In this document: positions 1 through 27,529 of the stretch, one piece after another
Position numbering within the stretch: the stretch's first letter is position 1
How the letters are laid out: each line of letters begins with the position of its first letter
Assembly (NCBI RefSeq): GCF_964204645.1
Contig: NC_134027.1
Coordinates: forward strand, 12,742,485-12,806,484
DNA from: Tubulanus polymorphus
Lineage: Eukaryota > Animalia > Nemertea
DNA length: 64,000 nucleotides
Direction: 5' to 3'
Translations under genes and position numbers: made by a program
The notes under the pieces: model-generated
Told to the model about the DNA's origin: nothing
Databases searched by the model: none
The model's input: the letters and a program-made list of their open reading frames with translations, nothing else

Positions 1-229
1 AATTTTCTTTAACTGTTTTAGGATCTAATATAATAAATTTATTATTTCTAGTAATATTTCTATCATAAGTTTGATTAAATTCATATGTTGGACAAAATAA
101 TACTATATTATCAAAATAGTTTTTATAAATAGTTTCTAATAAATTTAATATAAAATAAGTTTTTCCACAATTTGTTACGCCAGAAATTAACATATTATGA
201 GGTTCAAATATAATTAATTCCTTATTCAT
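1..229 (-). CDS. A32/FtsK-like packaging ATPase, N-terminal part (runs off the window)
   Basis: Manual translation MNKELIIFEPHNMLISGVTNCGKTYF contains Walker A (GxxxxGKT). Paralog of 3727-4206. Confidence 0.85.
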   Translation of the reverse strand, partial: MNKELIIFEPHNMLISGVTNCGKTYFILNLLETIYKNYFDNIVLFCPTYEFNQTYDRNITRNNKFIILDPKTVKEN

Positions 230-1353
230 TTATATATTTTTAATTTTACTTGATAATATCCATTCATTAAATTTATCTGGCCATCCAACCCATTTTACTA
301 AAGAATATTTTTTTCTTTTAACAGTTTTTGTTTTTAATACTTTTTCAATTTTATATTCTTGTTCTAGATTTTCAGTAGTTAAACTCAATTCTTCTTCATA
401 AAAATACCCATCAACTTCTTCACCATCTAAATCTTCTAATTTATAGACATATGGTTTTGTTGTTATTACCTTTTTTATTTTATATATTTTCCTAGTAAAA
501 TTTCGATCGTATCCTTTATCAAATATCTTTTTATATTTAGAAATTCTAACATTTTGACCAACTTTAAATTTAGGTTCACCAAAATCATCTACAAGAAATG
601 CCCCATATTAATTATTCCAAACAATTGCAGCATTTTCAGGTTTTCTAGCATCAATAGGTTTCATTCCAATAGAAGAATGATAAGAATTACTATATCCTTC
701 TATCAATTTTGGTAAAACGTCAATCCATTTAAAAGTATTATTTGCTGTAAAATATTTCCACATTCTTGTTCTTAATGTTCTATCAAATCGTTCAACAACT
801 GCAGCTTTTTTATCCGATTTTGTTGAAAAATATTTACTATTATGATTATCTAAGAGTTCATGAACAAGTGAATTATCAAATTCTTTTCCATCATCAAATT
901 GTATTTTTCCTGGCTTTAGTTTATCATCCGAAAGAAATTTTCTTAAAACATGTAATGTTTGTGCAGCATCTTTTCTATAAAGTGGTAAGCTCCATACAAA
1001 ACGATTAAAAATATCAATTATATTCAATATCCACCAAAAATCATCATTATCTTTCTTAACATTTTTCATATCAATTAAATCTCTTTACCACTGTTGATCT
1101 ACATAACTTACGATAGTTTTACGAGTTTTATATTTTCTAACAATTTTTTATGTGTTGTATATGTTGGTTGTTCTAACATAAATTGATTTATATCTTTATA
1201 TTTAACTAAATTTTGTGGGATTATCTTATCTAATTTATCTTGTTTTACTTGGCGCCATATATTTTTTACAGAAGAATAAGCAACCGAACTCTCAGGGTTG
1301 TAATATAGATTTCTTAAATATTGTTCTTTAGAATTAGTTTTTTTATCCCCCAT
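230..1353 (-). pseudogene. Retroviral-like (rve) integrase with C-terminal chromodomain, copy 1, disrupted
   Basis: IDIFNRF, IQFDDGKEF, VVERFDRTLR motifs; chromodomain-like KYSLVKWVGWPDKFNEWI near 260-310. Frameshift near 1108 and stop at 608. Confidence 0.9.
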
Positions 1354-1383
1354 TTATATATCGTTAATTTTAACTTTATATTT

Positions 1384-1922
1384 CTAATATTGAATACTAT
1401 CTAATTGAGAATTTACAATATTTAATTGCGCGTCAGATATAATATAAATGTGCATTTTGAAATTTAAACTTCCTTTTTTCTTTTTCATGAATAATTGTAT
1501 TCCATCTTTAGTGTTCTGTAGTTTTTTCCCAGAACCATGTAATAAATTATCTTCAGTTGTTCTGAAATCTAACCATAATGCATATTATTGCCGGTATAAT
1601 AATCAATTTGATTAATATTACAATTTTCAGATGATTTTACTTTTTCATTCATAAAATGTTTTCTAATTTCTGGCCATTGATCTATCATTCTCATTCCTTG
1701 ACAAAATATTTTACTTGCTATTCCTTCGATAGTTATTTCTACTTTTGTTATTTCAGGATTATAATAATTATCAACATTTATTGCGCCATTAGAATATGTT
1801 GCAATTGTAAAAAATATTAATACGCCTTAAATAGATCTTCTTGGGAAGTTAATATTCTCATTAATTATTTCATCATTTGCATTAATAGTTACAGTTTTAA
1901 ATTTAAACTCAATATAATCATA
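1384..1922 (-). pseudogene. Major capsid protein (double jelly-roll) 3' part, copy 1
   Basis: Near-identical to 9486-9950 (ALWLDFRTTEDN.LHGSGKKLQNTKDGIQL...SDAQLNIVNSQLDS). Ends at the copy 2 insertion site. Confidence 0.8.
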
Positions 1923-2391
1923 AGTAATAGGGGTAATGGGCTTTCAAGCCAAAGGTCGAAGGGTCGAGCTCATTAAAAAACAAAACATTAAAAGTAATTT
2001 AAAACTATAATATATTTTCATAACCGTGTGTATTTTATATTATAACTAAATATTTATTCTAAGATATTAATAATTTTAATTTTAAAAGCATATTGTATTA
2101 AATCAATTGGTCGCTCCACTTCGCTACCGCTCCGCTCCGCGACCAATTGATTTATTTACAATACACAAATTCATATAATCAAATATATTCAAATAATAAT
2201 AATTATTCTATTATTCAACTGAAATACACACGGTTATGAAAATATATTATAGTTTTAAATTACTTTTAATATTTGTTTTTAATGAACTCGACCATTCAAC
2301 CTTTAACCTGAAAGCCCATTACCCCTATTACTCTTAAAATATTCATGTAAATGAATAACATTTAAATTGACAGATTATTCAATATAAAAGT
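1923..2391. repeat. Left TIR (~469 bp); first 410 bp (1923-2332) form an imperfect palindrome
   Basis: Matches 26914-27382 directly and 22519-22875 in reverse complement. AGTAATAGGGGTAATGGGCTTTCA...TGAAAGCCCATTACCCCTATTACT; inner perfect stem 2099-2114/2139-2154. Confidence 0.95.
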
Positions 2392-2424
2392 GTAAGCTCT
2401 TATAGAATAGATATATAAATAGTT

Positions 2425-4206
2425 ATTTTATAAATTTATATTCATATGGAAATTGTAGTCTCAGTAATAATTTTGAACCTTTATTATTCTTTAATTTATT
2501 CATATATTCATCATGTAATTCAGTAGGTATAATTTGATTTTCTTCCAATGATTGTTGCATAGATTTTTGACGCCTTATAAAACGTTACCATTATGAAACC
2601 TAAACAATGTTAACCATTCAGCGTCATTTTACAAACGACAGCCGTAAATCGATGTGCAAAACGTCACAGGTCTATGTGTACACAATCAAGCTATTTGGCA
2701 AAATATTATTGACATAGACGTAGAATGGCTTCCTGTAATTATATAATGACCTATATTTGAACGTCGAAATGTTATATTGCATTGAATATCATTAGAAGAC
2801 GTATTGTAATAGTAAAGGATGTATGATTATATCAGAAGCGGCAGGCATAAATAGAAATGATAAGTAAATCGGATTATTCGGTTAAATGGCGGATGTATAC
2901 ACGATTTGGAAGTCTGATATAAAAGTCAGACCCTGACGTGGGCATGCCGGTGGAATGACGAAGCTATCTACGATGTGTGTAGGGCCGGCGTGAATTTCAT
3001 CAGCGGCTACAAGCGGTCAATATGAAAATGTGTAAACATATAATTTCAATATTCAAACGTTTTAGAAAATATGTTTGATATTAGGAGTATGCAGGTTTCG
3101 TGAGATTAGCAATTTATAATAGCATAGCTATCATATACGGCTCCGCGTCCTCTGATGGCATGTGTATTAGGTGACAATTCAATTCAATTCTTTATTGATC
3201 CTTATTACATTGAAATTTCGGGATAAAATTCCCAAATTCAATAAATAAAAATTTTAAAATAAATTAATACAACATACATGACACACGGGTAATTCATACA
3301 GAACAACATAAGCATGTTATTTTAAATGACAATGTCTACTTCAACCCACCCAGACTCTAGGATATCGAGTGACAGCCAAACCCGTGGCCCGGGCTGGCTG
3401 GCTAGGCCACACGATATGCTCGAAGTCATGATGAAGCAGACATCAGAAGAGCTCGTTCTTCAACCATGGAGGCAATGAAGTTGCAGACCAGCTTAGAGGC
3501 ATAAGTAAATGAAGTCAGTCGCAAGTTCGCGATCAATTATTGAGAATTTTCAATAAAAAAATTTAAACCACTACTAGAGTAGAAGACCCGCTGTATCATC
3601 TACCCAATCGCCAAATCTCATCATTCCCCAAATTTCTTAAAACTTCGATTTCAAATTTGCAATTCCACATTAGCTTAGCCCAGAAATTATACATTTTTTT
3701 CGCAGGCGTCAAATAATTTTCTAAAATTAATTTTCTTGTTTATCTTTGTTATAAAATAAAACTAGAAATCTTATATTCTCCCTAAAGTCTTTAATAATTG
3801 AATTATATTTTTGACTTAAAACCCATGTTGTTATCCCAAAATGTCTCCCAGAGAAAGCTAGATAACATAACTCACTTTCTCTCACTTTTAAATCATGTAA
3901 ATTTGCGCAATCATCTATAATGAATAATGTATTTGATCCTTTATAAGTATTTATTGCTATTTTAATACAATTATCTAAATTTTCTTTTACTGTTTTAGGA
4001 TTCAATATAATAAACTTTTTCATCTTAACTATATCTCTATTATATGTTTTATTCATTTCATAAGTAGGACAGAATAATATTATATTATCAAAATGATTCT
4101 TATAAATAGTTTCTAACAAATCTAATATGAAATGTGTTTTACCACAATTGGTTACACCAGTAACTAACATATTATGCGGTTCAAATATAAATAAATCTTT
4201 ATTCAT
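2425..4206 (-). pseudogene. Packaging ATPase of copy 2, split by a ~1.17-kb insertion
   Basis: Walker A GVTNCGKT, Walker B FIIDD, GRHFGI motif in 3739-4206. Frame resumes near 2566 as KSMQQSLEENQ...LQFPYEYKFIK*. Confidence 0.9.
2569..3738. other. Unclassified insertion interrupting the ATPase
   Basis: Higher GC than the viral flanks and no long ORF. Removing it restores FYNKDK-KSMQQ. Short inverted repeat TTTGACGCCT (~2566) / AGGCGTCAAA (~3704). Confidence 0.6.
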
Positions 4207-5310
4207 TTATTCTTTTAATTTTACTAGATAAAATCCATTCATTAAATTTATCATCATATCCTTTATATTTCACCAAAGAATACTTTTTCCTTTAAGAGTT
4301 TTTGTTTTCAATACTTTTTCTATTTTGTATTCTATTTCATCTGGGTTTGGCACAAGTGATAATTCTTGTTCATAGAAATAACCTAATATTTCTTCATCTT
4401 TTAGATCTTCTTATTTATAAACAAATGGTTTAGTTAATATTATCTTTTTAATCTTGAATATTTCTTCAGTAAAATTTGGAGTATAACCTTTATAAAAGGT
4501 TTTTCTTTATTTAGATATTCTAACGTGTTGTCCTATTTTGAATTTAGGTTCTCCAAAATCATGTGTAACAAATGCTCCATATAAATTATTCCAAACTATT
4601 TCTGAATTATCTTCTTTTCTAGCTCGTATAGGTTTCATATTTATAGAACTATGTTTAGAATTATTATAACCTTTCACTAAATCATCTCATACATCGATAT
4701 ATTTATATGTTTCATTAGCAGTAAAATATTTCCACATTCTAGTTTTCAATGTTTTATTAAATCTTTCTATAATAGATGCTTTTTTATCTGAGTGTGTTGA
4801 AAAATAATCTACATCGTTATCAGATGATAGTTTTTTTAAATGTTTGTTATAGAATTCCTTACCTTCATCAAATTGTATCTTATCTGGAATAGCTTCTTTA
4901 AATATAGATTTAAAAGCATTTGTTACTTCTATTCCAGTTTTATTTTTGATTGGAATTGACCATGCGTATCTACTGAATATGTCTATAACATTTAATATCC
5001 AGAAATATCCTTTGTTGTATTCCTCTAAGTTCTTCATGTCAATTAAATCTGCTTGCCATTGTTGATCGATATATGAAACCATAACTTTTCTTGTTAAATA
5101 AGTTTTATCCATTTTCTTGTGTATTTGATATGTTGGTTGATTTTGTAACTATGATTTTAATTCACTATATTTTATATCACCATGTGGGCGCCGTACGGCA
5201 CCATTTTCATTATCAGATTTAATTTTATTCCATAATTCTGAAACGTTAGAATATGATACTTCACTTTCTGGGTTATAATATAAATCTCTTAAATATTGTT
5301 CTTTTTTCAT
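4207..5310 (-). pseudogene. rve integrase plus chromodomain, copy 2
   Basis: DDE triad in WQADLIDM, IQFDEGKEF, IIERFNKTLK; chromodomain-like KYSLVKYKGYDDKFNEWI. Premature stops near 5150 and at 4687, plus frameshifts. Confidence 0.92.
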
Positions 5311-5316
5311 CTTATT

Positions 5317-5685
5317 TTAATCCATTAATAATAATCTTGGTTTATTTTCAATGACTTTATCATTTGATTTATTTTCTGGTATAATAGGTTTATTGTCATT
5401 GGAATCATCTTTATCATCAGATTTGAATTTTGATTTATATACTACACCGGATAATATAATAACTGTTACTAATCCAATTGTAATATATAATTTATAATTA
5501 CTTCCAGCATTAGAAGAATCAGATGGATTATTATTTGAATCAATATCAGATAAAGTCTGTGATTCATTTATATCAGTTAATTTCTTTTTCTTAGCTTTTT
5601 TTAATTCTGCAGATCTTTTACCTAATTCTCTTGCCCATTTAATTTGTTTCTCGGATCTAGCGTTTTTCTTAACGCTATCACTCAT
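5317..5685 (-). CDS. Small basic protein with one predicted TM helix
   Basis: 122-aa ORF with TAAATG start, Lys/Arg-rich N-terminus and hydrophobic LYITIGLVTVIILSGVVY. Confidence 0.7.
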   Translation of the reverse strand: MSDSVKKNARSEKQIKWARELGKRSAELKKAKKKKLTDINESQTLSDIDSNNNPSDSSNAGSNYKLYITIGLVTVIILSGVVYKSKFKSDDKDDSNDNKPIIPENKSNDKVIENKPRLLLMD

Positions 5686-6286
5686 TTATTTTAGTTAATT
5701 TTTGTTCTGATTCATTTTTTGTTTCGACGTTTGGTTGTAGTACAGCGACATCTGTTTCGTTCTTACCTGATTTATATTCCATAGGTTTGATGTTCGAAAA
5801 TGTTATGACACCAGTAGAAATTAATGTCATAACCGATCCTAATTGAAATGAAGCATAACCAACCCATTTTTGTAATTCAGTCATAACTAAATAGTCATTT
5901 TTCAAATCACTATATAATTTATTTTCATCATCAATTGGTATTAACTGGTTACATAACTTAGAATAACATTTGACAATGCCATCTGAAATAGAATCATTTA
6001 TTCTAGCTAATCTAGCTTCTTCATAAATCTTAAAATATTTTATTACTTTATCGGGTTTCATAGCATCTAGTTCTTGATAAGTTAAAATTTTTCCTAAGAA
6101 ATCCTTAGATTTCCAGCCAGCAATTAATAATTGAAGATGATGCTTACAATATAAATAGTATTCATAATCAATATTGTTATTAACTTGAATAGAATTAGAA
6201 ACAACTGTATCTTTATTATCACTTATGCCCAAATCATCTAATGTTTTTTCAATATCAATACTATTCTTATTAGATTTCTTTGACAT
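5678..6286 (-). CDS. Polinton hypothetical protein (202 aa)
   Basis: TAAATG start; truncated paralog at 28926; hydrophobic segment near the C-terminus. Confidence 0.75.
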   Translation of the reverse strand: MSKKSNKNSIDIEKTLDDLGISDNKDTVVSNSIQVNNNIDYEYYLYCKHHLQLLIAGWKSKDFLGKILTYQELDAMKPDKVIKYFKIYEEARLARINDSISDGIVKCYSKLCNQLIPIDDENKLYSDLKNDYLVMTELQKWVGYASFQLGSVMTLISTGVITFSNIKPMEYKSGKNETDVAVLQPNVETKNESEQKLTKINE

Positions 6287-6689
6287 TTATATTAGAGAAA
6301 TTTAATAAGAAAAATATTATAAGTATTCTGATACTAGATAGCTAAAGTTAAAGAATTCTAGTATTGACTACTAATACTAGCTATTTGAATTTAAAGAATT
6401 TCTATTTTAATCTATTCAAAATATAAAGTATTCTCTTTTGAAAAGAAAGTATTAAAAATATAATAGAATTCACTAGCTAGTTGAAGTTATTGTTTTTTAA
6501 ATACTTCTTATTTAAATTAGGATTTAGATTATCTCACTACTATTGTTTATCTATAGGAGCAGTAATTACAACTGTCCAGATAAGTCATTTCGGATTCTTG
6601 ATAATAAATCCTAAAACTGAAAATAAATTCAAAGAAACGACTGGTAGAAATACCATTTCATAAACTCATATATTTTATTCTACAATCAT

Positions 6690-7430
6690 TATCGATTTCC
6701 ACATTCCAAGCCGCGCATTGAATGCGCGGTAAGGTATGCGTGGAATGCAGGAATCAATAAAAGTACAATACAACATCTGTCACTGTGTGTCATTAACAAC
6801 AGCTTAATGACGCAATTGAAATTCCGACAAACGTAATGCATTGGAAGGCTATACAGTATGGCTAAACTGCTACATGTCTCATGAGTTGAAATATCCATAA
6901 TGTCTGATTCCACATCCATATATCTTCACTTTCTTGATTCAATGGTCTTCATTTTGTTATCTAAAAGATAAATATCTAGCGTAGAATAAAACTAACTTGA
7001 AGTTGTAGTTGTAAAATATTAATTACAGCACTTAAACATGACCATTTTGTGGCGCATCTTACCAGGATAAGTTTTACATGTTTAACGTTTCCCGGCGCTT
7101 AATAACAACAAAAACAGTACTTACATTTATAACTGTAAATTCCTAAAATTGTGTTTATAGAGAGAATATCCTATACGTTCCTATGCTTATGTGCTGCGCG
7201 TTTATAACTGCCAGTTATTCACTAGCTAAACACTGTCTGGTGCAACAGATGTTCCTTTGTAATGTTATTGATTAATCCTTTTCAACTGAAATAGAACATT
7301 CGATCAATATTCAAATGAGGTACACCCTATTCAACTGAATATAACGTGCGACAGATGCTTTTGTAAACAACCTAATACAATTACATACAGGCTGTTTGAC
7401 ATAGATCGAGAGTAACCGGTTTTCTAAGCG
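6690..7430. other. Probable non-viral insertion between the HNH gene and the 202-aa gene
   Basis: GC content rises; the segment is absent from the equivalent interval of copy 3 (28668-28925); the HNH C-terminus diverges from its paralog at this point. Boundaries approximate. Confidence 0.4.
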
Positions 7431-7431
7431 T

Positions 7432-8085
7432 TTAACATTCAACGTATTTTTCATTATGTGTTGAATTCCATAATTCAACAAATGTCTTTGCTTTATCCAG
7501 TTGATCTAAATATAACTGTAAATCTAGTTTATTAGATTTAATTATGTTTTCCTTCTTTTCTAAAGGCCTTAAATTTTTCCAACTCCAAATAAGTTTTTTA
7601 TTGTATTCATCATTCATGTTAAATTTAGATATTGGTAACACATGATCAATATGAAAGTATTCACCATAATTATCTATATTCATTTTATCATCGAATTGAT
7701 ATATTATCCATGATATGAAAAATTCATCTGTACAACCCAATAACTTAGATAGTGTTTCTGAATGTGTTTCTTTGTTGAATAATTGTGTTAATCTAGATCT
7801 TAAGCATTGTTTCAATCTAAAATTAAGATCAGTTTGATATCTTTCTCTCATATATTCTGTCATATAATCATTATAAGCTTCTCTATTATCTTCTCTGTAT
7901 TGTTTGGTATATAGTTTAGTACAAGTTTTACAGCAATATTGAAAACCATCTTTGCTAATCTTACGCTTATTAGATTCTGTTATAGCTAATTTATCTAATT
8001 CACATTTAGAACACTTCTTGTAATATATATTTATAACACCAGTGTTATTTGTAATATTGATAATTTGTGGTTGTTCTGGTTCCAT
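7432..8085 (-). CDS. HNH-family endonuclease with N-terminal CxxC...CxxC zinc finger (NCLDV/phage type)
   Basis: KKCSKC...CKTC; FHIDHVLPISKF...WKNLRPLEKKENIIKSNK. Paralog at 27885-28667. Confidence 0.85.
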   Translation of the reverse strand: MEPEQPQIINITNNTGVINIYYKKCSKCELDKLAITESNKRKISKDGFQYCCKTCTKLYTKQYREDNREAYNDYMTEYMRERYQTDLNFRLKQCLRSRLTQLFNKETHSETLSKLLGCTDEFFISWIIYQFDDKMNIDNYGEYFHIDHVLPISKFNMNDEYNKKLIWSWKNLRPLEKKENIIKSNKLDLQLYLDQLDKAKTFVELWNSTHNEKYVEC

Positions 8086-8250
8086 TTATTATACATATTT
8101 TTTACTAAATTGATTTTAGAAGTTATTCATTTATATGTTATTCATGAATATATATGAATTATTTCAATAAAACTTTACTAACACTTTTAATGTTTAAAAA
8201 TCTAACTCATACAAATATAAATATTGAAATATGTTTAAAATATACCTATG

Positions 8251-8600
8251 TATTAGATACCCTATTAGACACCCTATTAGATACCCTAATACCTGATACC
8301 CTATTAGATACCTTAAATACTTAAAACCCCCTTTTTAAAAATAAATATTATTTATACAATTTTCAACCAATTTATTTTTATTTTTTCAACTAATATATGA
8401 ATAAGTTTGAAAATAATAAAGGTTATTTATTATTACTGAGGTTTCAATTTCCATATGAATATAAGTTTATAAAATAAGATATTTTATGTATTGAATTGTA
8501 TTAGATTGTATTAGATATGTATTAGATACCTTAAATACTTAAAACCCCCTTTTTTATTTACTATTATTTTATACAATTTTCAACCAATATTATTATTTGT
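8251..8600. repeat. Intergenic 12-bp TATTAGATACCC repeats and a ~90-bp direct duplication flanking an inverted ATPase 3' fragment
   Basis: About five TATTAGATACC(C) units at 8251-8312. TTAGATACCTTAAATACTTAAAACCCCCTTTTT occurs at ~8304 and ~8522. 8394-8477 (+) reads YMNKFENNKGYLLLLRFQFPYEYKFIK*. Confidence 0.75.
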
Positions 8601-8619: not shown

Positions 8620-9453
8620 TTAATCACTTTCACTATCAGACCCTAACAATTTATTCAAATTCTCTACCGATTTTTCTTCTTCAAATTCTTTATTATTTTT
8701 ATACTTTTTCATCCTTTCTACCGCATCATCAATAGTTTCTTCTTTATGTTTCATAGAATCTTTATTATCAATATGCTTATCTGTAACTATATCACCATGT
8801 GGGTGCCATACGGCACCATTTTCATTATTATCTTTATTAGTGTTTGCTCCTAATATTTCATTTACAGTGTTTGATTCTAATATTTTATAAGCATCGGTTA
8901 AATCTAATTCATCTTTATTAGGTGTTGCTAATAATAAATCTTCATATATCTTTTCACCATTTACTTTTTTATTTGAAACAAACTTTGTAACATATCTAAA
9001 TGGGTGTTCTAAAAATTCTCTTTTACCAACACGTTCTATAACATTATTTATATGTACCTTTGTATTCATATGTTTATTCAAATTTGATGGAGCGTTTGAA
9101 AATTCACCTTTACAATAATCACAATAATTTCTATTTTCACTAACATTTAATATTATTGCATTATTTGATGTAGAAGGTATTACATTATTAGATGTAGAAG
9201 GTATTAAATTATTAGATGTAGAAGGTATTACATTATTAGATGTAGAAGGTATTACATTATTATCAATTACATTACTTAAATTATCAACAACACCACTTTT
9301 ATTATTATCGATTTCTATTAGTTTAGTTTTATAAATTTTGAAAATAGGATCAAATATCAAAGCTATATTACAAGGTATTACATAATATAAACCATCATTA
9401 TTTTCATGTGTATCGATGTATGGAATATGTTTATATACTTTACCTCCTTCCAC
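8620..9453 (-). CDS. Hypothetical protein with 8-aa repeats and a C2H2-like zinc finger
   Basis: (NN[V/L]IPSTS)x4 from 24-bp tandem repeats; YCDYCKGEFSNAPSNLNKHMNTKVH. Start context TAAGTG looks like a mutated TAAATG. Confidence 0.7.
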   Translation of the reverse strand: MEGGKVYKHIPYIDTHENNDGLYYVIPCNIALIFDPIFKIYKTKLIEIDNNKSGVVDNLSNVIDNNVIPSTSNNVIPSTSNNLIPSTSNNVIPSTSNNAIILNVSENRNYCDYCKGEFSNAPSNLNKHMNTKVHINNVIERVGKREFLEHPFRYVTKFVSNKKVNGEKIYEDLLLATPNKDELDLTDAYKILESNTVNEILGANTNKDNNENGAVWHPHGDIVTDKHIDNKDSMKHKEETIDDAVERMKKYKNNKEFEEEKSVENLNKLLGSDSESD

Positions 9454-9485
9454 TTATTATATAAATATTTATTAAAGTTAAAATT

Positions 9486-10662
9486 TTAATACATAACACT
9501 ATCTAATTGTGAATTTACAATATTTAATTGTGCGTCAGATATAATATAAATGTGCATTTTGAAATTTTTGATTCCTTTATTCTTTGTCATGAATAATTGT
9601 ATTCCATCTTTAGTGTTCTGTAGTTTTTTTCCAGAACCATGTAATGAATTATCCTCTGTTGTTCTAAAATCTAACCATAATGCGTATTTATTACCGGTAT
9701 AATAATCAATTTGATTAATGTTACAATTTTCAGATGATTTCACTTTTTCATTCATAAAATGTTTTCTAATTTCTGGCCACTGATCATTCATTCTCATTCC
9801 TTGACAAAATATTTTATTTGCTATTCCTTCGATAGTTATTTCTACTTTTGTTATATACCTTTAATAGATCTTCTTGGGAAGTTAATATTCTCATTAATTA
9901 TTTCATCATTTGCATTTATAGTTACAGTTTTAAATTTATCAATATAATCATATAATAATGAAAATCCTTGATTGTATTTAGTTTGAATTATACTTGAAAT
10001 ATTTTCATCAGTTACTGTGTCATATTCTAAACATATATTTGATAATTTATAACTCATATCTTTATTAACGCTAGATATTACAATTTCATTTACAGGAGCA
10101 AATGTTATCTCAAATATAACATCTTCTTGAATTGCGTATTTATATAAAGGTGCATTATTATTTATCAATTCAAAGTCTAATGGAATTTTATATTTACTTC
10201 CATATATACTTTTTATCAATTTATCTACAGCATTAGTTAATATTGCATTATGCGCTTCTGATCTTAATTTATTTTGGTTTTCTGATTGGATTCCTTGAAA
10301 TATCATATTATTTCTATTTTCTTTTGTTAACCATAAATCTTTATAATGCATAAATAAATTATAATCATCTAATGAGAAAACTGTTTCTGGACCAATCTTT
10401 ATAGTTAATTTTTTAATCAAATATCTTCCAACATTATCAACAACATAATTATTATTATTACCGATTACTTTTATATCGGCTGATAAATAAATACTATTTG
10501 GAACATAAAAGTATTTTGTGTTAATCTCGGAATTCTAACATATAAAGTTTCATCGGGATTAATATTAGAAGGGTTATGAGTAATTATATGATGAGATCTT
10601 TCTGCTTTAATAGCATTAGATATTCTATGATTCTTAGAAGGATTGATATAACTCCCACTCAT
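9486..10662 (-). pseudogene. Major capsid protein (double jelly-roll), copy 2, frameshifted
   Basis: Three consecutive ORFs (10471-10662, 9851-10420, 9486-9797) join to roughly 390 aa with beta-rich motifs (NPSNINPDETLYVRIP, YKLSNICLEYD, INFPRRSIKGI, ALWLDFR). Size and position fit a Polinton MCP. Confidence 0.8.
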
Positions 10663-12282: not shown

Positions 12283-13603
12283 ATCTAAAATATAATATTC
12301 CTCCTATAACAATTCCTACACAAGTTAAAGCTAATTTAGTATTTTCATGGGATTTATTATCATCATTAGTTTTAATTATATCATGTTGAATATTATCAGT
12401 TTTAATATTTTCTGATGTATTGTAATCTTTTATTTTAGAATCATTATTTAATTTAATATTTTTAGTTTTAGTTTCTGTTGATTGAATATGTTTTTAATTT
12501 TTTTCACCTTCCATTAATTTTGGAGCAGTGATAATCTTTTTATTTATATCATTTAATCGAAATGAATTATTTATTGTTGCAGTTTTAATTAGATTATTAT
12601 AACCAATTATGTTTCCCATCTTTAATACTAAATCATTAGAAATAATTAATAGATTAGGGCCTATACAATAATTTAATCTAATATGTGATTTATCTAAATA
12701 ATTTTGATATCTTACAATGTTTTCCGGAATCGATCTATTTTTATCATTATGAATTGAATCTTCAAATAATACTTTAAATTGTTTCTGCGCATCGAATGAA
12801 GTGTTATCATTTCCAATTATTGGGGATCTTGTTTCAACTTGCGCACCTAAAATACATATCAAATAAGTTCTAATTGATTGATTTATTCTTTGTATTCCAG
12901 CTTTAGTAAAACCTTCACCATTTTCTAAAATGAAATTAACCCAACCATTATTGTTTTTTTGTTGTATATTATTATAATATTTTGGTAATTCATTCCAATT
13001 TAGTGTTCTTATATCTGAATTTGTCATTATTTTTCCAAATTCTTTAGTATACAATATTCCTAATCCACCCATTGTTCCAATTTTTGCTCTAAAATCTTTA
13101 TTTTAATTAATATTAAATTCATTACATATTTTATAAAACTTAGAAAAATTAATATTATTATTCAATTCTTTAAAATATTTTGAACCTGGTAAAGGACATT
13201 CTAATTCATCTAATATTAATTTTATTTGAAAATAAGTTTGAAATCTAAAAAGTGACAACATCAATGGTAAACTTGGTTTGTTTAAATGATCATTCCAACT
13301 TATTCCACACCCTGTTGTTGCGCAATAAACAGCAAAATTTAATTGGTTCCGCCAATACTTCATATTAGATTTTAATAACCATTGTTTTGCCTCATTTAAA
13401 TTTTTGAAATTAATTGTATACACATGAAATATATTTTCCATCTTTCCATGCAAATTATTACTTTCAGTAACATAAATATATAAATCAATTAACGAATTTA
13501 AAACTTCATTTCTATATGTAATATCTTTATTAAAATCTATTGCTGGAATATTATATTTAATTGATTTATTATATTGGAAAGCTTTTGGAAAACTATCTGC
13601 CAT
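12283..13603 (-). pseudogene. Conserved Polinton-family protein with C-terminal hydrophobic tail, frameshifted
   Basis: ORFs 13103-13603 and 12494-13072 (YWRNQLNFAVYCATTGCGIS, GFTKAGIQRINQSIRTYLICILGAQ). Paralog at ~23145-24003. Confidence 0.75.
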
Positions 13604-13619
13604 TTATATAATTAAAAAA

Positions 13620-13940
13620 TTAATAATTTATTAATTCTTTTAATAATTTATCTTGTTCTTCAACTGTTATATGGCCATTTAAACTTATTATATAATCTAG
13701 TGTGTTCTTTAATTTATTAATTTCTTTCATATTAGTTTTAATTTTTTCTTTATTACTTTTTATATTTAATTTTGAACTTATACCAGTTAAAACACTTGAA
13801 CTTAATCCTAATACACCAATTGATATAGCTAAAGGTGTTAATGGACTGAATATTGCTAGAAATGTAATTACAGAACTAATTGTATCCGAACCACTTATAA
13901 TACCAGGAATAATATCAATATCATCAACTTTATCTTCCAT
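13620..13940 (-). CDS. Small two-TM protein, internally deleted relative to 24020-24454
   Basis: ISSVITFLAIFSPLTPLAISIGVLGLSSSVLTGI is shared with the paralog. Confidence 0.7.
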   Translation of the reverse strand: MEDKVDDIDIIPGIISGSDTISSVITFLAIFSPLTPLAISIGVLGLSSSVLTGISSKLNIKSNKEKIKTNMKEINKLKNTLDYIISLNGHITVEEQDKLLKELINY

Positions 13941-13960
13941 TTATTTAGCAAAAAAAATTA

Positions 13961-14383: not shown

Positions 14384-14407
14384 TTATTTAGCAACAAAAT
14401 TATGCAT

Positions 14408-16130: not shown

Positions 16131-19100
16131 TTATAATACATATTTTCATTAAAATTTGATTAACACGTTAGAATTCTTTTCATTATCTCGTTCTCTTTTG
16201 TTTCTTCTCTTTTAAATTTTAAGTATTCATCTAAATTGCAACCAAAAGCAACTGTATGAATTCCATCATCTAAAATATATCTTTTATCATCAAATGGGTT
16301 TAGACTTATCTTTTCAATTTCTTCAATAAACATTTCATGATCTTCAGATCTTAAACATCTCATTTTATGTTTTCTAACTTCTTCATTGAATATACAATTG
16401 ATGTAATCTTTGAAATGAATATTCTTTTCTACTACACTTTTGGTTATTCCTTTTAACTTTTTAGCTTCATGTTCTTTAGTTTTATATGAATACATTTTAG
16501 ATCTAATACCTATGAACTCTTTCATTTCTTCACCGCCTTATTCATCCTTAAACTTCCCTGGAACTTTTTTATTATCATTGCTAAACAATTCATGATCTTT
16601 AGGATAGTTACTAAAATCAAAATGATGTTTTAATGTTTTTAAATCATCTGTTATCTATCAGTTTTTATCTTTAATATGTAACTGTCGGTATCAAAATATA
16701 ATATTTCTATATGTTTTTCTCCAAAAAGTGGTTGTAATACATTATAATAGAATTCATACATTAGTAATTTTGATAATTCTAAAACTGAAGCGCCAACATA
16801 GATTGGTTTATTAAATTCCATTGATGTTCTTCTCATCTTAACTGCAGCTAAATTTTCATCAAATATTCTTTTACCTATAAATTTAGGATATGATTGTAAA
16901 TGTCTAATTCTTTTGCCATTACTAACTAACTCAATATCATTTCTATTTCTAATATTTTCACAAGTCTTACCATAGAATGCATTATTCATTAACTTGAAGA
17001 AATCTTTCTCGAAATCAGTTTTAGCTTCAGTTCTCTGTTTGGTGTTAAAATCTATATATTTTTCTAACCACTTAGATTGACTAAATGAAATATATCTATG
17101 CACTTTTTTTAGAATCATTCCTTGATTCAAATAAAACTTTAACATTCTATAATGTACTACATAATTATATTTATCTTCTTGAGTTACCATTAACTTTTCT
17201 GTATGAATATGATTTTCGGGTTTAATTCTTTTTTGATAATTTGATAATTCTTCATGAGTTACGGTTTTATGTTCGGGACAGTAAGCTAGATTTCTAGATT
17301 TAAATTTAATATGTTCAGGATATTCTAAATCTACAACAAAGAAGTAACCAGTATCTGAATCATCTGCAATATCTAGAATTCTTTTCTTTCAATCAAATTT
17401 ATCATTATTTACATTCTGTAAAACTTCACTTATTTCAAATACTCCATAAGGTTGTGGTTCCATCATTGCCCAACCATACAAATTATTTGCATCTATATAT
17501 AATAACTTATATCCAGGGTTATCATTTACATTGAAATATCTATCCCCTAATACACCTGAAACTCCTCCTCTTATAGATTTTTCAAATAATAGTAATTGAT
17601 CTATATTTGTTAACAAATCCATTTTTATATCTGTAAATTCTAAACCACAATCCCATGTTAAACCTGGTGATGAATAACAATGACAAGGATCAATGTCAAA
17701 ATATTTAAGGTTAACATCTCTAAACCTTTCGAATATATCGGTTAATAATAATACATCTGATTTTAAATATATATCTACTAATTGTCCATGATTTTCTATT
17801 TTGAAATGATTCCAAATATTCAATGTTCTATTATATACTTCATCTTTAACATATTCATTTTTTAATTCATCATAGAATTGTTCTTTTAATAATTCAGTTA
17901 TGTTAAAATCATTATGATTTTTATAGAAAGAATATGGAATTGCTCCTTTATATCTCATTAATTGAAAATCATCATTATTTGGATAGTGTTGTTTTAATAT
18001 TTTTAATTCATCATCAACTAATGATTTTGATAAGTTATCTAATGAACTATTTAAAAATCTATATGAATCTATAAATCTTAGGCAACCAAATTGGAATGAT
18101 ATATAATTCTCAGATGTTTTAGCTAACATTCTAAATTTATAAGTTGGTATTTTATCTTTTGATCTATTTGAATTTAATATTTCTATTTCATTATTAATTT
18201 CTTCTATTTTATGACATAACTGTTTGATGAATAAATGTGCATCATATCCTGATAGATTATGAAATATAACTGGTACAAAATTAATTTTCTTAGCTTGTAA
18301 GTTACAATTCTCATGTGCAGCGCATCTAAACTTTCCATTCAAATGATCATGGTCTCTTACTTTTTTATCTTTATAATTAAATATCTTTTCACAATAATAA
18401 CATTTATCTGCAAACGCAAATTCTTCTTTATCTTCTTCTGTCATTATAATTTCTATATTTGTATTCAATAATTTACTAAATCTTATTTCATATTCAATTA
18501 ATAAGTCACAAAAATGATTGATAACATTTTCATTTCTATAATCACAATATTCACTTTCAATTAGTTCTGGATAATCAGATTTTATATATAACCCGAAAGC
18601 AGCAGCTGATTGATGAATCTTTTTAATATTATTTGTTTTTGGTGGTTCATCTGAAAAATCATTTTCATTAGAATTTAATTTCTTTCTTTTATAATATATT
18701 TCTTTTCTATCTTGATCAGTTAATTCTTTATTTAATGATTCAAAATCTCCATATATTACAAATGGAACTTTATTTTTGTAATCATATTTTTTGAATTCTG
18801 AAAATTTTATCCTTTTCATTTGGTAAAACTAATTTACAATAATCATGATTTTCACATAATTGTTTATGATTTAATAATGTACTTTCATTACTGAATCTAT
18901 GTAAACATTTTCTACAAAGATATATTTTATGGTGATCATTTTCTGATTTAAAAAATAAATCGATTTGTTTAATCCACATATAATGATTCTCATAATATAG
19001 TATATCTATAACATCGTTTGAATCATAATCTTTTGATAGATATAAAGGTTCTAATGTATAATGTTTTATATTGTTACCTTTTGTATTTGGTAATTTGATT

Positions 19101-19840
19101 GAATCAAATACATTTATTCTTAAATTATTATCTCTTTCTATCTTTGGGACGTTTTTAATTCTAACAGGATACTTATCTATCTTATAATTATTTTCAAATG
19201 GTTTATAATGAGTTAATCTAAAACTATGTTGTTTATAATCTTCAACTGGGTGTAAACAACTTATTATAGCCCATAGAAAACATTTATCATCTTCATTTTG
19301 TACATTTATTACAGCATTAGTTTTAAATGGTAGTTTGATATAACTCGATGCTTCAATATCTGGTTCTTTATAATATGATACATTATTTTCATCAATTGGT
19401 TTTGATTTAGTTAACTTATTATATTTTGTGTTATAAACATGTAAAGTCATAAATATTATTTCATTAAATATTAAACCAGATCTTTCAAAATATTTCTCTT
19501 CTATTTTAGTTTTTACTTCATTATAACATTTATCTAATTTAGCATCTATATGTTGTTTTGAAATAATATGTTGTGAATGAGAATTTATATTATATATTGG
19601 TTTATCTTCAGATTTTATGAATTTAACTTTAGAAGATATACTAATTTTAGGATATTCAACATCAGTTATTATTTTTATTATTTCTTTCATATTTTCTAAA
19701 TGTTTTTTATTTTCTTCTAATGTTTTTCCTTTATGAAATTTAAACTCGATAGCTGCTAGACCAATATCACTTTTAAATGCTTCGGTTATCTCTATATCTT
19801 TTTTATTATCTAATGAATTAATATAATTTCTTACATCTTC

Positions 19841-22061
19841 CAGGGAAGTGTGATGAGATGGAATACGGACGCTTTTAATTGCCGGATGTAGGCTATTCAA
19901 TTCAGCCCGTACATCAAAGGTTACCGCAACAGCTGTAAGCTACGCTTATCGAGTGTGTGTTACCAGCTGAATACCAGTCAACATCAACTTTGATTCGGTC
20001 GCAGAACAACCCGCAATAGTTTTAGCCCGATAAATGTTCTGCGATCGATACTACGCATGCGCACTGCAGTTCATTGAACCACGTGGAAGTGGCTGTGTAT
20101 ATACATATTTTTGTTTAGAAAATCGGTTGAAATTCAACAATTTCTCGTAAAATTTGTCCAAAAAGGTATGTATTTTTATTCTTCTATATCTCCGAAACCC
20201 GGAATCGGAACATTAAGTATTTATATTGTGATTAAAGTCTGTTTTTATGTGTTAAACATATGTTTTTGCCAGTTCGTTCCGATTCCGGGTTTAGCGTTAT
20301 TTGGGCCTTGAAGATGTCAAATATTTCGGCCCAGACTCGCGCAGCTTTCGTTTCTGACGTCATGTTGCTATGTTACGACACAAACATATACACGAAGTAT
20401 GATCTTTAAAATGTGTATTTACTACATGATAATGTTACTTAATAACGCTTTCATTAGGCCTACAAATTATTGTCCCCCATATAAACCAAGTTACCTAAAT
20501 AGCATCAGCAATCTCATTTAATTAACCTTTTCTTGTTTTTAGTCATGGATCTTTGTCGATTGTGTGGAAAAATGCGAAACCTCCGGATCGTCGTCCTATC
20601 GATAAAAATAATTTCAAAAGCCATGTGAAGGAGTTGTTCAACATTGATTTTGATGATGATACTGAACAGTACCCGATATATATCTGTAATATGTGTCGTG
20701 TCAAATTACAAAAATGGCGTAAGAACAAAAACGTTAAAAAAACTGTCCCTGTGACTATCACAACATGAAACTTTGCCCACATTTTATCCAAATCTTTCGC
20801 AGTGCTTATGTGAATGGCGGAACATAATGTATCTTGAATTTTTGTAAACCACTGGTTAATTCCAAGTCTGGACGGTGACGTATTTGTAGTCAAAGTTTTA
20901 TCGATCGATTTTCCATAATGTACTGCTGCCATTCCATTTGAACTGAATTTAAATACTCGATGGTTAATCACTTCAGTCATAGCCTTTTCCAAATATATAG
21001 TGTTCCTGCGAAAATAATAATAATGATTATAATTTTAACATGTACTTATCTGGATTTTTTATATTATGTTTATATATTATTTTCTGTATTCGTTTATTAT
21101 TTTATAACCTAAAAGGATTGTATTGATTATAAAAATAAATGTAAAAAATACCTGTATGTGTGTTTTCTCGTGTTCAGATCGCAGTCTCTGGTCAGCTGTG
21201 CCTGAGAAGTACCTATATGAAAAAGAAAAGGAAAGAATGAAGTGCCTGCAATTAGGTGGAAACTATTCCGATCTTTCATTGATTTCAAAAGGAATAACAC
21301 TCACAAGAATCGGCCGAATTAGTTGATCCTGATCCAGAGGATTCCCGTAATATTTCCGTATCGATCTGAACCAATTCGTCACTATCAAAGAATAGATCGT
21401 CAAAATCGTCATCATTTATAATTTCGTTGACAACCGTTACCATTTTAATACAGCGGAAAGAACCGATATCACGATTGATAAAACACTATATCCGTCTGAA
21501 GCGATGTAGAGAGAATCCCACAATGATAACGAAAAAGTCCAAAAATGTTAGTAGTTTATTCAACGTTTCGTCTATGTCCTAATAGTCATCTTCAGAAATA
21601 ATGAATACTACAGAAATTATGAGAGATATATACAATCCAGAGACAAAGAGACTAATTCAAGTAATCAGAGATGATACTAACTAAAGGAAAATTAACGTAG
21701 AAACAGTTACACGCTAAAACAGATTAAAGAGAAGCAGTTAAGAGACAAACTAGGGGGCACTTAAATTTAAGACAATTGTGAATACAAGTTGATCGACTAA
21801 AATTGATGAGGGGAAATCAGATGTTGAGTTTAACCAGTTTACAGAGGAATTTTTATATAAGTTTATTATGGGATGAAAAACCGATATTCGGAAACAACTG
21901 AATTATTACGGAGATTCCCGATCTCGCTGGTTATCGCTTATCGGCGCGTTACGTAACAAAGCGCTCGCCGACGAACCGTTATCGGCTTTAGGGCAATTAC
22001 AACGCACATTCGACAAGAGCTGCACAATAGCGTCCGTATTCCATCTCATCACACTTCCCTG
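19841..22061 (+). mobile_element. Non-autonomous cut-and-paste DNA transposon (CAGGG termini; P- or hAT-like, superfamily uncertain)
   Basis: Perfect 33-bp TIRs CAGGGAAGTGTGATGAGATGGAATACGGACGCT (19841-19873, 22029-22061). TSD CATCTTC at 19834-19840 and 22062-22068. Removal restores pPolB RPYMEDVRNY. Confidence 0.92.
20545..20825 (+). pseudogene. RAG1 N-terminal (Chapa)/ZAD-like zinc-binding domain remnant
   Basis: MDLCRLCGK, frameshift, ...VKELFNIDFDDDTEQYPIYICNMCRVKL..., frameshift, TFYPNLSQCLCEW. Preceded by a pyrimidine tract and AG at 20541-20542. Confidence 0.55.
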
Positions 22062-22518: not shown

Positions 22519-22875
22519 AAAAACAAATATCAAAAGTAATTTAAAACTATAATACATTTTCATAACCGTGTGTATTTCAGTTGAATAATAGAATAATTAT
22601 TATTATTTGAATATATTTGATTATATGAATTTGTGTATTGTAAATAAATCAATTGGTCGCGGAGCGGCGCGGTAGCGAAGTGGAGCGACCAATTGATTTA
22701 ATACAATATGCTTTTAAAATTAAAATTATTAATATCTTAGAATAAATATTTAGTTATATATAAAATACACACGGTTATGAAAATATATTATAGTTTTAAA
22801 TTACTTTTAATGTTTTGTTTTTTAATGAGCTCGACCCTTCGACCTTTGGCTTGAAAGCCCATCACCCCTATTACT
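22519..22875. repeat. Right TIR of copy 2 (inner part deleted)
   Basis: Reverse complement of 1923-2280. Lacks the ~180 bp present in copy 3 at ~27272-27453. Confidence 0.93.
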
Positions 22876-24003
22876 ATCATATAATAATGCAAATCCTTGA
22901 TTGTATTGAGTTTGAATTGAGTTAGCAATATTTTCATCAGTTACTGTATCATATTCTAAACATATATTCGATAATTTATAACCCATATCTTTAACAACGC
23001 TAGATAAAACAATTTCATTTACAGGAGCAAATGTTATTTCGAATATAACATCTTCTTGAATTGCGTATTTATATAAAGGTGCATTATTATTTATCAATTC
23101 AAAATCTAATGGAATTTTATATTCCTTTTTTTTAATTTTTGTTAATATATTTTCTGGAATCGATCTATTTTTATCATTATGAATTGAATCTTCAAATAAT
23201 ACTTTGAATTGTTTCTGTGTATCAAATGATGTATTTAAATTTCCAATTATTGGGGATCTTGTTTCAACTTGCGGACCTAAAATACATATCAAATAAGTTC
23301 TAATAGATTGATTTATTCTTTGTATACCTAATTTAGTAAAACCTTCACTATTTTCTAAAATGAAATTAATCCAACCATTATTATTATCAATTTTATAATT
23401 ATGATAAGCTCCAATTCTATGCATATAATCAATTCTTTTTATTTCATACTGTTCACCAATACCTTGCACTTTACCATGCGCTCTAAAATCGGATTTAATA
23501 TTTCTATTAAATTCATTACATATTTTATAAAACTTAGATAGATTAATATTATTATCCAATTCTTTAAAATATTTAGACCCAGGCAAAGGACATTCTAATT
23601 CATTTAATATTATTCTGATTAGAAAATATGTGTGAAATCTAAATATTGTGTGAATTAATTTTAAATCAGAATAATTCAAATTTTTATCTAAGTTATTTAA
23701 ATGATCATTCCAACTTATACAACAACCAGTTGTTGCACAATAAACAGCAAAAGTTAATTGATTCTGCCAATATTTCATATTAGATTTTACTTTATATATA
23801 TGATATCCATTTCGAGTAAAAGTAACTTCATATGTATTAATTATATTTTCCATTTTAGAAATGAAAAACTCAGTAACATAAATTTCTAAATTAGTTAATG
23901 AATTTAAAACTAAATTTTTATATGAAATATCTTTATTAAAATCTATTGCAGGAATATTATATTTAATTGATTTATTATATTGGAAAGCTTTTGGAAACCC
24001 CAT
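22876..24003 (-). pseudogene. Copy 1 deletion fusion: conserved protein (paralog of 12283-13603) joined to the middle of MCP
   Basis: ...DKNRSIPENI joins YKIPLDFELINNNAPLYKY...QGFALLYD, then runs into the TSD and TIR of copy 2. Confidence 0.8.
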
Positions 24004-24019
24004 TTATATAATAAAAAAA

Positions 24020-24454: not shown

Positions 24455-24473
24455 TTATTTAGCAAATAATTTA

Positions 24474-24882: not shown

Positions 24883-24907
24883 TTATTTAACAAAAAAAAT
24901 ATGCATG

Positions 24908-26913: not shown

Positions 26914-27382
26914 AGTAATAGGGGTAATGGGCTTTCAGGCCAAAGGTCGAAGGGTCGAGTTCATTAAAAACAAAACATTAAAAGTAATTTAAAACTATAA
27001 TATATTTTCATAACCGTGTGTATTTTATATTATAACTAAATATTTATTCTAAGATATCAATAATTTAAATTTAAAAAGCATATTGTATTAAATCAATTGG
27101 TCGCTCCACTTCGCTCCCGCTCCGCTCCGCGACCAATTGATTCATTTACAATACACAAATTCATATAATCAAATATATTCAAATAATAATAATTATTCTA
27201 TTATTCAACTGAAATATACACGGTTATGAAAATATATTATAGTTTTAAATTACTTTTAATATTTGTTTTTTAATGAACTCGGCCATTCAACCTTTAACCT
27301 GAAAGCCCATTACCCCTATTACTCTTAAAATATTCATATACATGAATAACATTTAAATTGACAGATTATTCAATATAAAAGT
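26914..27382. repeat. TIR of copy 3 with 410-bp fold-back (26914-27323)
   Basis: Near-identical to 1923-2391. Confidence 0.95.
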
Positions 27383-27529
27383 ATATATTTACAACATTAT
27401 TTCAATATTTATATTTGTATGAGTTAGATTTTTAAACATTAAAAGTGTTAGCAAAGTGTGATTGAACTAATGCATGATATAAATCATTGAACTTCTAAAA
27501 TCAATTTTAATAAAAAATTTAGTATTAAA

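What the first reader, a model, noticed from the sequence alone, without database searches (positions are those of the whole stretch)
1923..2332. Each Polinton terminus is a 410-bp strand-biased fold-back with a GNA mini-hairpin cap
Seen: the TIR is itself self-complementary. The outer stem is 1923-2035/2222-2332, followed by an AT-rich unpaired bubble, a perfect 16-bp stem 2099-2114/2139-2154 and a 24-nt loop. The terminal AGTAATAGGGG... therefore recurs inverted as ...CCCCTATTACT 410 bp inside. The structure recurs at 26914-27323 and, partly deleted, at 22519-22875. In the GC-rich outer arm 5 of 6 mismatches are C:A on the top strand, i.e. G:T wobbles on the bottom strand. The bottom-strand loop reads GCGGAGCGGAGCGGTAGCGAAGTGGAGC, a chain of GC-GNA-GC motifs. 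Established: d(GC-GNA-GC) mini-hairpins are very stable and occur in ssDNA origins; parvoviruses prime from 3' hairpins; pox and asfarviruses have imperfect AT-rich hairpin ends; Polintons are modelled as protein-primed. Inference: the favoured strand is the one with the element's 3' end, and folding would pair its 3'-OH against internal template. That could allow self-priming or resolution steps not in the standard model. All three copies have the same loop orientation, so no flip/flop is seen here.
Basis: partly seen in the sequence, partly recalled or inferred. Interest (0 to 1): 0.85.

Follow-up and report, generated by a model that had tools for sequence, protein, structure and literature searches.

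The report
Strand-specific hairpin caps on Polinton ends
The ends of this virus-like jumping element (a Polinton), and of several very distant relatives, are long self-complementary sequences whose tip is predicted to zip up through G·A pairs only on the strand that carries the element's 3′ end, so they likely act as hairpin caps while the DNA is single-stranded, a step missing from the standard protein-primed model.

Summary
Window 1923-22875 is a decayed Polinton with a 6-bp target duplication, and its termini are 410-bp fold-backs (folding z about -20).

It is not a one-off duplication:
- Raw reads under the same species label show hundreds of such ends, mirrored changes in both arms, and subfamilies with other interiors that again pair.
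- Six more families, with polymerases only 23-52% identical where compared, end in 104-174-bp fold-backs. Two are complete elements with both ends. Four AC-type families covary at 16 of 39 pairs.
- In all seven families the 3′-end strand folds better (G·T pairs 17 vs 2), and its apex fits sheared G·A pairs.

It is not universal: 7 of 14 ends tested lack it, and the positives were found through the palindrome. No 50:50 flip/flop was seen, which argues against parvovirus/pox-style resolution.

Self-priming remains open.

Terminal palindromes are already in print for protist virophages/PLVs (2026 preprint), and this scan noted end hairpins on other Polintons. I found no report of the strand-specific G·A apex or of the covariation.

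The parts
1917..1922 (+). left 6-bp target-site duplication (ATCATA), inside the capsid-gene fragment of an older Polinton
   Evidence: same 6-mer at 22876-22881; the two flanks join into the homologous gene at 9450-10194
1923..2332 (.). left terminal fold-back, 410 bp; the minus strand carries the element's 3′ end
   Evidence: 1819 reads with unlike flanks end at 1923
1923..2035 (+). terminal (outer) arm, starts AGTAAT
2099..2154 (-). inner 16-bp stem (2099-2114/2139-2154) with 24-nt purine-rich apex (2115-2138; 19 of 24 purines on the minus strand), predicted G·A zipper
   Evidence: variant at 2118 in about 35% of reads turns a G·T of the predicted zipper into G-C
2222..2332 (+). inner arm, inverted copy of the terminus
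2333..2394 (+). non-palindromic continuation of the TIR, shared with copy 3
3727..4206 (-). A32-type packaging ATPase, cut by an inserted repeat; its 3′ piece lies at about 2413-2568
   Evidence: Pfam Pox_A32 E 4.8e-13; relatives run through
4687..5148 (-). rve integrase fragment
   Evidence: Pfam rve E 7.8e-9
9486..10534 (-). probable major capsid protein, in two ORFs
   Evidence: Pfam Capsid_N E 0.006, below the curated cut-off; syntenic homologues in relatives
16160..19939 (-). protein-primed family B polymerase, broken into four ORFs; carries an endonuclease-VII-like HNH insert and an N-terminal region with a conserved Cys and His
   Evidence: DNA_pol_B_2 E 1.2e-11; Endonuclease_7 E 3e-4, below cut-off; N-terminal match to L046
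21997..22269 (-). C2H2 zinc-finger ORF inside the right TIR, facing inwards
22519..22875 (-). right terminal fold-back; lacks the last 53 nt of the inner arm and about 130 nt of TIR behind it; apex at 22661-22684
22876..22881 (+). right target-site duplication
26914..27323 (.). terminal fold-back of a second, truncated copy; TIR continues to about 27808 with a zinc-finger ORF at 27491-27817
   Evidence: 1896 reads with unlike flanks end at 26913/26914

Best explanation
The element's ends are long self-complementary sequences that likely fold, on the 3′-end strand while it is single-stranded, into a hairpin cap with a predicted G·A-zipped tip, and this cap would protect the end and hold a second copy of the terminal origin for end repair, while replication likely still starts by protein priming. 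Shown: the palindrome, its position at the true termini, its conservation in distant families, paired changes in both arms, the strand bias, and one fixed orientation. Inferred: (1) strand displacement by the element's polymerase, or excision as a single strand, frees the strand; (2) the 3′ end pairs flush with the inner arm; (3) the G·A apex resists nucleases or is read by an element protein; (4) a shortened 3′ end is refilled from the inner arm, as in Streptomyces telomeres; (5) the terminal protein then primes at the restored end, which leaves the hairpin orientation unchanged.
For: True termini: 6-bp TSD and 1819 and 1896 reads ending at the first base. Within the species, 23 variant rows of the outer arms were tabulated: 14 form 7 partner pairs that stay Watson-Crick, 6 restore a pair, 2 give T·G on the 3′ strand, and 1 goes against. 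Other subfamilies keep the outer 45-57 bp round different interiors that again pair. Six more families carry 104-174-bp terminal fold-backs. These include a complete 15.1-kb AG-type element with a 6-bp TSD (genes) and a 19.4-kb AC-type element. Polymerase identity among four carriers is 23-52%, scattered on the tree. Four AC families (5 ends): 98.4% of cells paired, 16 of 39 pairs changed on both sides, 0 of 500 shuffles as high. The 3′-end strand is the more stable in 7 of 7 families, with G·T pairs 17 vs 2. A GA/GA closure round a covarying mini-stem lies on the 3′-end strand in three AC families, with GA/GG in the fourth. It also appears in the C9 AG element (read by eye) and the short in-species variant. 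The background for a GA..GA closure is 18 of 1422 hairpins on either strand, two of them these termini. A one-base bulge at position 20 of the inner arm recurs in all four AC families, so asymmetries are kept, not erased. Orientation is the same in all 10 complete ends folded and in the window's partial right end. Precedent: TP-capped Streptomyces telomeres with GNA loops and fold-back end repair (PMC5449611, passages).
Against: No experiment shows folding in cells or any role. Mirrored changes can come from one arm being copied from the other without selection. The 150-nt reads do not phase the two arms, and some cross-arm mis-mapping is possible (90-130 reads fit two places). G·T bias can also come from strand-biased mutation; margins are under 1 kcal/mol in 3 of 7 families. 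Seven of 14 ends tested lack the fold-back, among them AG-type L032, the tree sister of a carrier, so it is not needed by all Polintons. The right end in this window has lost 53 nt of the inner arm. A flush 3′ end is a primer junction, and nothing here shows what would stop runaway extension. The terminal-protein domain itself was not tested. Two rows were left out of the table: 27282 G>C, which would break a pair, and 26965, an A-run alignment effect.
Confidence: 0.55

Rival explanations
1. The hairpin is a true primer. The 3′-OH is extended along the excised or displaced single strand, and the closed end is later opened asymmetrically, perhaps by the endonuclease-VII-like domain inside the polymerase, so that one orientation is kept.
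For: The 3′ end pairs flush with the inner arm, which leaves the interior as template. Three of four carriers checked have an Endonuclease_7 match in pPolB. The same model is proposed for protist virophages and PLVs (10.64898/2026.07.28.741278, section 7). One 184-bp palindrome between inward-facing genes (L013) may be a joined terminus.
Against: No 50:50 flip/flop. Any loose-end pile behind the inner arm has fewer than 304 reads against 1896 at the terminus, and strand-switch joints at exact partner positions total 46 reads at a depth near 1600. The C9 AG element has the fold-back but no Endonuclease_7 match, and the domain is common among pPolB relatives in general. All carriers checked keep long N-terminal polymerase extensions.
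Confidence: 0.25
2. The palindrome is a recurring by-product. Strand-displacing polymerases fold back and copy the terminus, arms are homogenised by the same accident, and nothing is selected.
For: Patchy distribution: at least 3 changes are forced on the tree, and the feature is absent in 7 of 14 ends. Lengths vary from 104 to 410 bp. Copying alone explains mirrored changes.
Against: Copying cannot make or keep non-complementary features. Yet the GA/GA step, the covarying 2-bp mini-stem and the position-20 bulge persist while the stems diverge, always on the 3′-end strand, against a background near 1%.
Confidence: 0.08
3. The fold-back is a recognition signal for integration or excision. It gives the integrase a local duplex end on single-stranded or cruciform DNA, and the kept asymmetries mark the outer end from its inner copy.
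For: The palindrome starts exactly at the first base of the element in all seven families. Outer and inner arms keep fixed differences. The inner copy is seldom used as an end.
Against: A cruciform would expose both strands alike, which does not explain a 3′-strand-only apex. The preprint links its palindromes mainly to non-pPolB replication genes as well as to particular integrases. No integrase comparison was made here.
Confidence: 0.12

Closest known systems
Polinton/Maverick (adintovirus-type) elements
   Same: pPolB, rve integrase, A32 ATPase, probable capsid, TIRs, 6-bp TSD and AG…CT ends. The AC-type ends of relatives match the (AC)3A motif in PMC8097293 (passages).
   Different: The TIR begins with a 104-410-bp fold-back. 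The words palindrom- and hairpin do not occur in the main texts of PMC10748475, PMC8097293 or PMC8502044.
Terminal palindromes of Halocafeteria endogenous virophages and PLV subtype 4 (bioRxiv 10.64898/2026.07.28.741278)
   Same: Palindromes within TIRs next to the TSD, with hairpin priming proposed.
   Different: There: protist elements, a 52-nt example, mainly non-pPolB replicases, and no strand bias, G·A apex or covariation in the passages read. Here: pPolB-encoding Polintons with longer imperfect hairpins. The preprint's supplements could not be seen.
Streptomyces linear replicon telomeres (Tap/Tpg)
   Same: Terminal-protein-primed replicon whose 3′ strand folds, with GNA loops closed by sheared G·A, the 3′ end able to pair with an internal copy, and truncated ends repaired by fold-back extension (PMC5449611, passages).
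   Different: Many short palindromes instead of one long one, an internal origin, no family B polymerase and no integrase. No homology is claimed.
Parvovirus/AAV terminal hairpins and poxvirus hairpin telomeres
   Same: The terminal sequence recurs inverted inside; imperfect AT-rich hairpin (recalled; a pox flip-and-flop title was seen in a reference list).
   Different: No 50:50 flip/flop here, no Rep gene found among the window ORFs, and the element integrates with TSDs.
Casposon TIRs
   Same: Self-synthesising pPolB transposons; some TIRs contain internal palindromes (PMC4046053, passages).
   Different: Prokaryotic, Cas1 integrase, and no structure or strand rule described in the passages read.
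DNA mini-hairpins GCGNAGC and guanine zippers of satellite III
   Same: Sheared G·A building blocks with nuclease resistance and a role at ssDNA origins (PMC13037366; PMC11014236; passages).
   Different: The sequence context here (GC spacers, GGA facing GGA or GAA) is not the solved TGGAA context, so the zipper is a prediction.

Membership tests
Polinton/Maverick | protein-primed family B polymerase gene | tested here: met
   DNA_pol_B_2 E 1.2e-11; gene broken into four ORFs
Polinton/Maverick | rve integrase | tested here: met
   E 7.8e-9, above cut-off
Polinton/Maverick | TIRs with AG…CT ends and a 5-8-bp TSD | tested here: met
   6-bp TSD; TIR copies 96-98% identical
Polinton/Maverick | packaging ATPase and capsid genes | tested here: met
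   Pox_A32 E 4.8e-13; the capsid match is weak (E 0.006)
Polinton/Maverick | terminal-protein domain at the pPolB N-terminus | tested here: inconclusive
   A long N-terminal region with a conserved Cys and His fits the TP-vOTU layout of PMC11071308 (section 9); the atlas gave only unnamed clusters; no fold was run
Parvovirus/AAV- or pox-type hairpin terminus | flip and flop isomers in similar amounts (recalled) | tested here: not met
   same orientation in 10 of 10 complete ends; fewer than 304 vs 1896 reads; indirect, since 150-nt reads do not span the hairpin
Parvovirus/AAV- or pox-type hairpin terminus | covalently closed or self-primed free genome ends | not testable with these tools
   no long reads or free-genome data were served
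Streptomyces-type telomere | 3′-strand fold with sheared G·A loops | tested here: inconclusive
   sequence pattern and covariation fit; the structure itself is predicted
Streptomyces-type telomere | Tap/Tpg proteins and an internal origin | tested here: not met
   no such Pfam match among 28 ORFs scanned; the element works like such a telomere at most
MITE or fold-back transposon inserted at the ends | 410-bp unit moves alone with its own TSD | tested here: not met
   TSD flanks the whole 21-kb element; depth continues from about 2290 to 1930 past the inner arm, and no large loose-end pile is listed there

The most novel reading that the evidence does not exclude
A broad set of Polintons replicates through a single-stranded stage primed by its own G·A-capped 3′ hairpin. 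The hairpin is opened asymmetrically by a nuclease domain carried in the polymerase, which makes these elements a hybrid between parvovirus-like hairpin priming and adenovirus-like protein priming.
Probability: 0.2. Interest if true: 0.9.

Novelty: new variant of a known kind. Interest (0 to 1): 0.74.

Why it matters
Polinton replication and excision are modelled mainly from sequence; the papers read describe the elements as characterised primarily in silico and call for experiments on terminal palindromes. A conserved, strand-specific DNA structure at the exact ends of elements with 23-52% identical polymerases points to a single-stranded intermediate and names the strand. It gives short, defined substrates for biochemistry and a clear long-read prediction. 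It also ties eukaryotic protein-primed viruses to the hairpin-telomere logic of Streptomyces and parvoviruses. Short-read assemblies may break at such ends, so the feature may have been under-counted.

Tried and rejected
No whole genome is held for the window, so copies were studied through reads.

Searches that found nothing:
- Exact TIR patterns: nothing in viral contigs or metagenome contigs.
- The small conserved ORF and the ATPase alignment: no relatives in viral contigs.
- The 22 closest loci (ATPase 46-87% identical): none matches the window's TIR, so close relatives remain untested.
- An AG-motif scan of five more genomes: no inverted pair within 600 bp.

Rejected as termini:
- The AC-type pattern scan gave two hits, L095 and L096. 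Neither was shown to be a Polinton end, and they were not counted.
- L045 4288-4654 is an insertion in an integrase gene.
- L027 6855-7022 is a palindromic insert in flanking DNA.
- AT-rich intergenic palindromes in L065-L070.
- L013's 184-bp palindrome is unresolved and was not counted.

Other dead ends:
- Run X1 (share 0.08) laid only 5 records and says nothing.
- The first tree run did not finish and lacked L160. The tree used is the quick one on the polymerase core. It left out P0017 and L062 (too short), and L160's place is unsure.
- The 'hairpins' in bioRxiv 2022.05.25.493380 are protein beta-hairpins.
- Kapitonov and Jurka 2006 was not held.
- Standard DNA parameters favour the apex zipper only slightly: -15.7 vs -14.7 open on the 3′ strand, and -13.1 vs -14.3 on the other. 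To my knowledge they do not model intercalated G·A motifs.

Full report
1. Observation. Both strands fold far better than shuffles (z about -20), and the minus strand is 7.7 kcal/mol more stable. The three copies are 96-98% identical and keep one loop orientation.

2. Context. Window 1923-22875 is flanked by the 6-bp duplication ATCATA, and the two flanks join into a capsid-gene fragment of an older element. Of 28 ORFs scanned, matches include pPolB, rve integrase, A32 ATPase and a weak capsid hit. The genes are broken. The host is an AT-rich eukaryote that I did not identify; an animal is likely from the relatives' taxa, which is inference. The TIR runs about 890 bp and the fold-back is its first 410 bp.

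3. Copies in the species. No genome was held. One raw-read run filed under the same species label as the best holder was laid twice, about 12% of it read each time. Depth is about 1300 over the hairpin interior against 4 reads on the unique flank, so there are roughly hundreds of ends; that baseline is thin. Reads with unlike flanks stop at the first base (1819, 1896), which fixes the terminus.

Each call shows only its 40 best variant rows (123 and 82 hidden). I tabulated 23 rows in the outer arms: 14 form 7 partner pairs that remain Watson-Crick, including a transversion; 6 restore a pair; 2 give T·G on the 3′ strand; 1 goes against. Two rows were left out (27282 G>C, which would break a pair, and an A-run artefact at 26965). 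The reads do not phase the arms. Other subfamilies share only the outer 45-57 bp. In a few reads (3-5 per listed form) the interior is a different short hairpin with an 11-bp stem and a 10-nt loop closed by GA/GA on the 3′-end strand. Larger loose-end piles point to further interiors.

4. Relatives. pPolB searches gave 22, 42 and 16 loci, partly overlapping. Most do not reach a recognisable end. Self-comparison and handle searches found terminal fold-backs in six further families. L046 is 129 bp, AG-type, 150 bp before a 1248-aa pPolB ORF. G001:C9 is a complete 15.1-kb AG-type element with 174 bp at both ends and TSD TAGGAA. G001:C67 is a 19.4-kb AC-type element with 159 bp at both ends, in a TTA repeat compatible with a 5-bp TSD. 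Three single AC-type ends measure 118, 114 and 104 bp; their terminal position is inferred from interior similarity to C67.

In a test of the first 20 nt, these six and the window score 17-20 of 20 against an inverted copy. Seven other ends score 10-13. Only two of those seven start with AGTAGT (L032, L011), neither has a verified TSD, and three are contig ends (L011, L021, L109). The positives were found through the palindrome, so 7 of 14 is not a frequency. Four carriers are 23-52% identical in the polymerase core and do not group; starred branches force at least 3 changes (quick tree).

5. Structure. On five AC-type ends from four families, 98.4% of 193 cells pair and 16 of 39 pairs change on both sides; no shuffle or slide comes close. 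The structure was drawn from these sequences, and two rows are ends of one element. The 3′-end strand is the more stable in 7 of 7 families, with 17 G·T pairs against 2 (naive p 7e-4).

The apex on that strand is C-GA, a 2-3-bp mini-stem with a 2-4-nt loop, then GA-G. This holds in C67, C50, C9-AC, the C9-AG element (by eye) and the short in-species variant. C154 has GA/GG, and L046 ends in a GAA loop. The mini-stem itself covaries (C-G, T-A, T·G). Only 18 of 1422 hairpins in all loci close with GA..GA on either strand, two of them these termini. These represent about four independent lineages, not seven.

In the window the 24-nt loop can zip as GGA/GGA, two pairs, GGA/GAA, two pairs and a GGTA loop. 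A variant in about 35% of reads turns its one G·T into G-C. Such G·A steps and guanine zippers are known in other sequence contexts (PMC11014236; PMC13037366; passages). The opposite strand would carry pyrimidine mismatches. Copying of one arm from the other explains mirrored stems, but not kept asymmetries such as the GA/GA step and the position-20 bulge in all four AC families.

6. Orientation. All 10 complete ends folded and the window's partial right end have the same orientation. In reads, no loose-end pile behind the inner arm is among the six largest (304 or more; 171 smaller rows hidden). Strand-switch joints at exact partner positions number 27 and 19 reads, and 21, 10 and 11 reads. 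They may be rare flips, arm conversions or library chimeras. Symmetric hairpin transfer of the AAV or pox type (recalled) is therefore unlikely, and so is a free-standing 410-bp MITE.

7. Mechanism. I commit, at 0.55, to a 3′ hairpin cap that works with protein priming. The sequence facts are shown; folding in cells, protection and end repair are inferred by analogy with Streptomyces telomeres (PMC5449611, passages). The polymerase keeps a long N-terminal region with a conserved Cys and His, in line with the TP-vOTU layout (PMC11071308, section 9), but the TP fold was not tested. Self-priming with asymmetric resolution (0.25) stays attractive: three of four carriers have an endonuclease-VII-like insert in pPolB (compare PMC10748475), but the C9 element lacks it. 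An integrase signal (0.12) and a neutral by-product (0.08) are less likely.

8. Novelty. Terminal palindromes with a hairpin-priming model are in a 2026 preprint on Halocafeteria virophages and PLVs, mainly non-pPolB (passages and section 7; supplements closed). Internal palindromes are noted for casposon TIRs. Seven searches (listings) and term look-ups in PMC11296320, PMC6431247, PMC11071308, PMC10748475, PMC8097293, PMC8502044 and bioRxiv 2026.10.13.758929 (passages) found no account of fold-back ends in pPolB Polintons of animals, nor of a strand-specific G·A apex. I could not see Kapitonov and Jurka 2006, Pritham 2007, Repbase entries or any supplements, and these could mention it. This scan's notes report end hairpins on three other Polinton-type elements and G·A hairpin modules in a protist; they are unchecked and not counted as support.

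9. Verdict. A real, conserved structural feature of a subset of Polinton termini: a new variant of a known kind, interest 0.74.

Noticed in passing
window 1-1922 and 22876-25500: Fragments of an older related Polinton flank the element, which inserted into that element's capsid gene; 12717-14758 is repeated at 23147-25259.
   Followed up: partly
window 2395-8300: This segment appears inverted relative to copy 3 and to relatives L065/L069, so that the ATPase end abuts the left TIR; sub-terminal sequence is stranded at 8077-8254.
   Followed up: partly
window 2569-3735, 19940-22040, 25500-26913: Higher-GC inserts; the first splits the ATPase gene and is a high-copy repeat in reads (2055 loose ends at 2564).
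   Followed up: no
window 29390-64000: Complex satellite of 31-bp and 154-156-bp units in higher-order blocks; it follows the truncated third copy.
   Followed up: no
L160 (G001:C9) 169-464: An AG-type element sits 8 bp from the end of an AC-type element. Its left interior resembles that of the AC-type C67 element although the two polymerases are only 24% identical, which suggests swapping of ends and polymerase.
   Followed up: partly
L013 4657-4840: A 184-bp branched palindrome lies between an inward-facing small ORF and pPolB; it may be a circular or collapsed junction of two termini.
   Followed up: partly
L027, L032, L039, L046, L062 and their genomes: Prokaryote-labelled assemblies hold eukaryote-like contigs with Polintons; G004 alone has 165 pPolB matches. 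These are probably host DNA binned by mistake.
   Followed up: partly
L094 8357-17345: The AC-type element appears to carry an internal tandem duplication of about 4.7 kb, seen as a repeated ORF series.
   Followed up: no
window 17392-18828: Two of the closest named pPolB relatives are filed under Bartonella sp., possibly host contamination. Some pPolB2 proteins carry a VSR nuclease (PMC10748475), which I recall as T·G-mismatch specific: a lead for T·G-rich hairpins.
   Followed up: no
L065 3033-3105, L068 9082-9359, L069 3554-3636: AT-rich palindromes lie downstream of the ATPase gene in close relatives.
   Followed up: no
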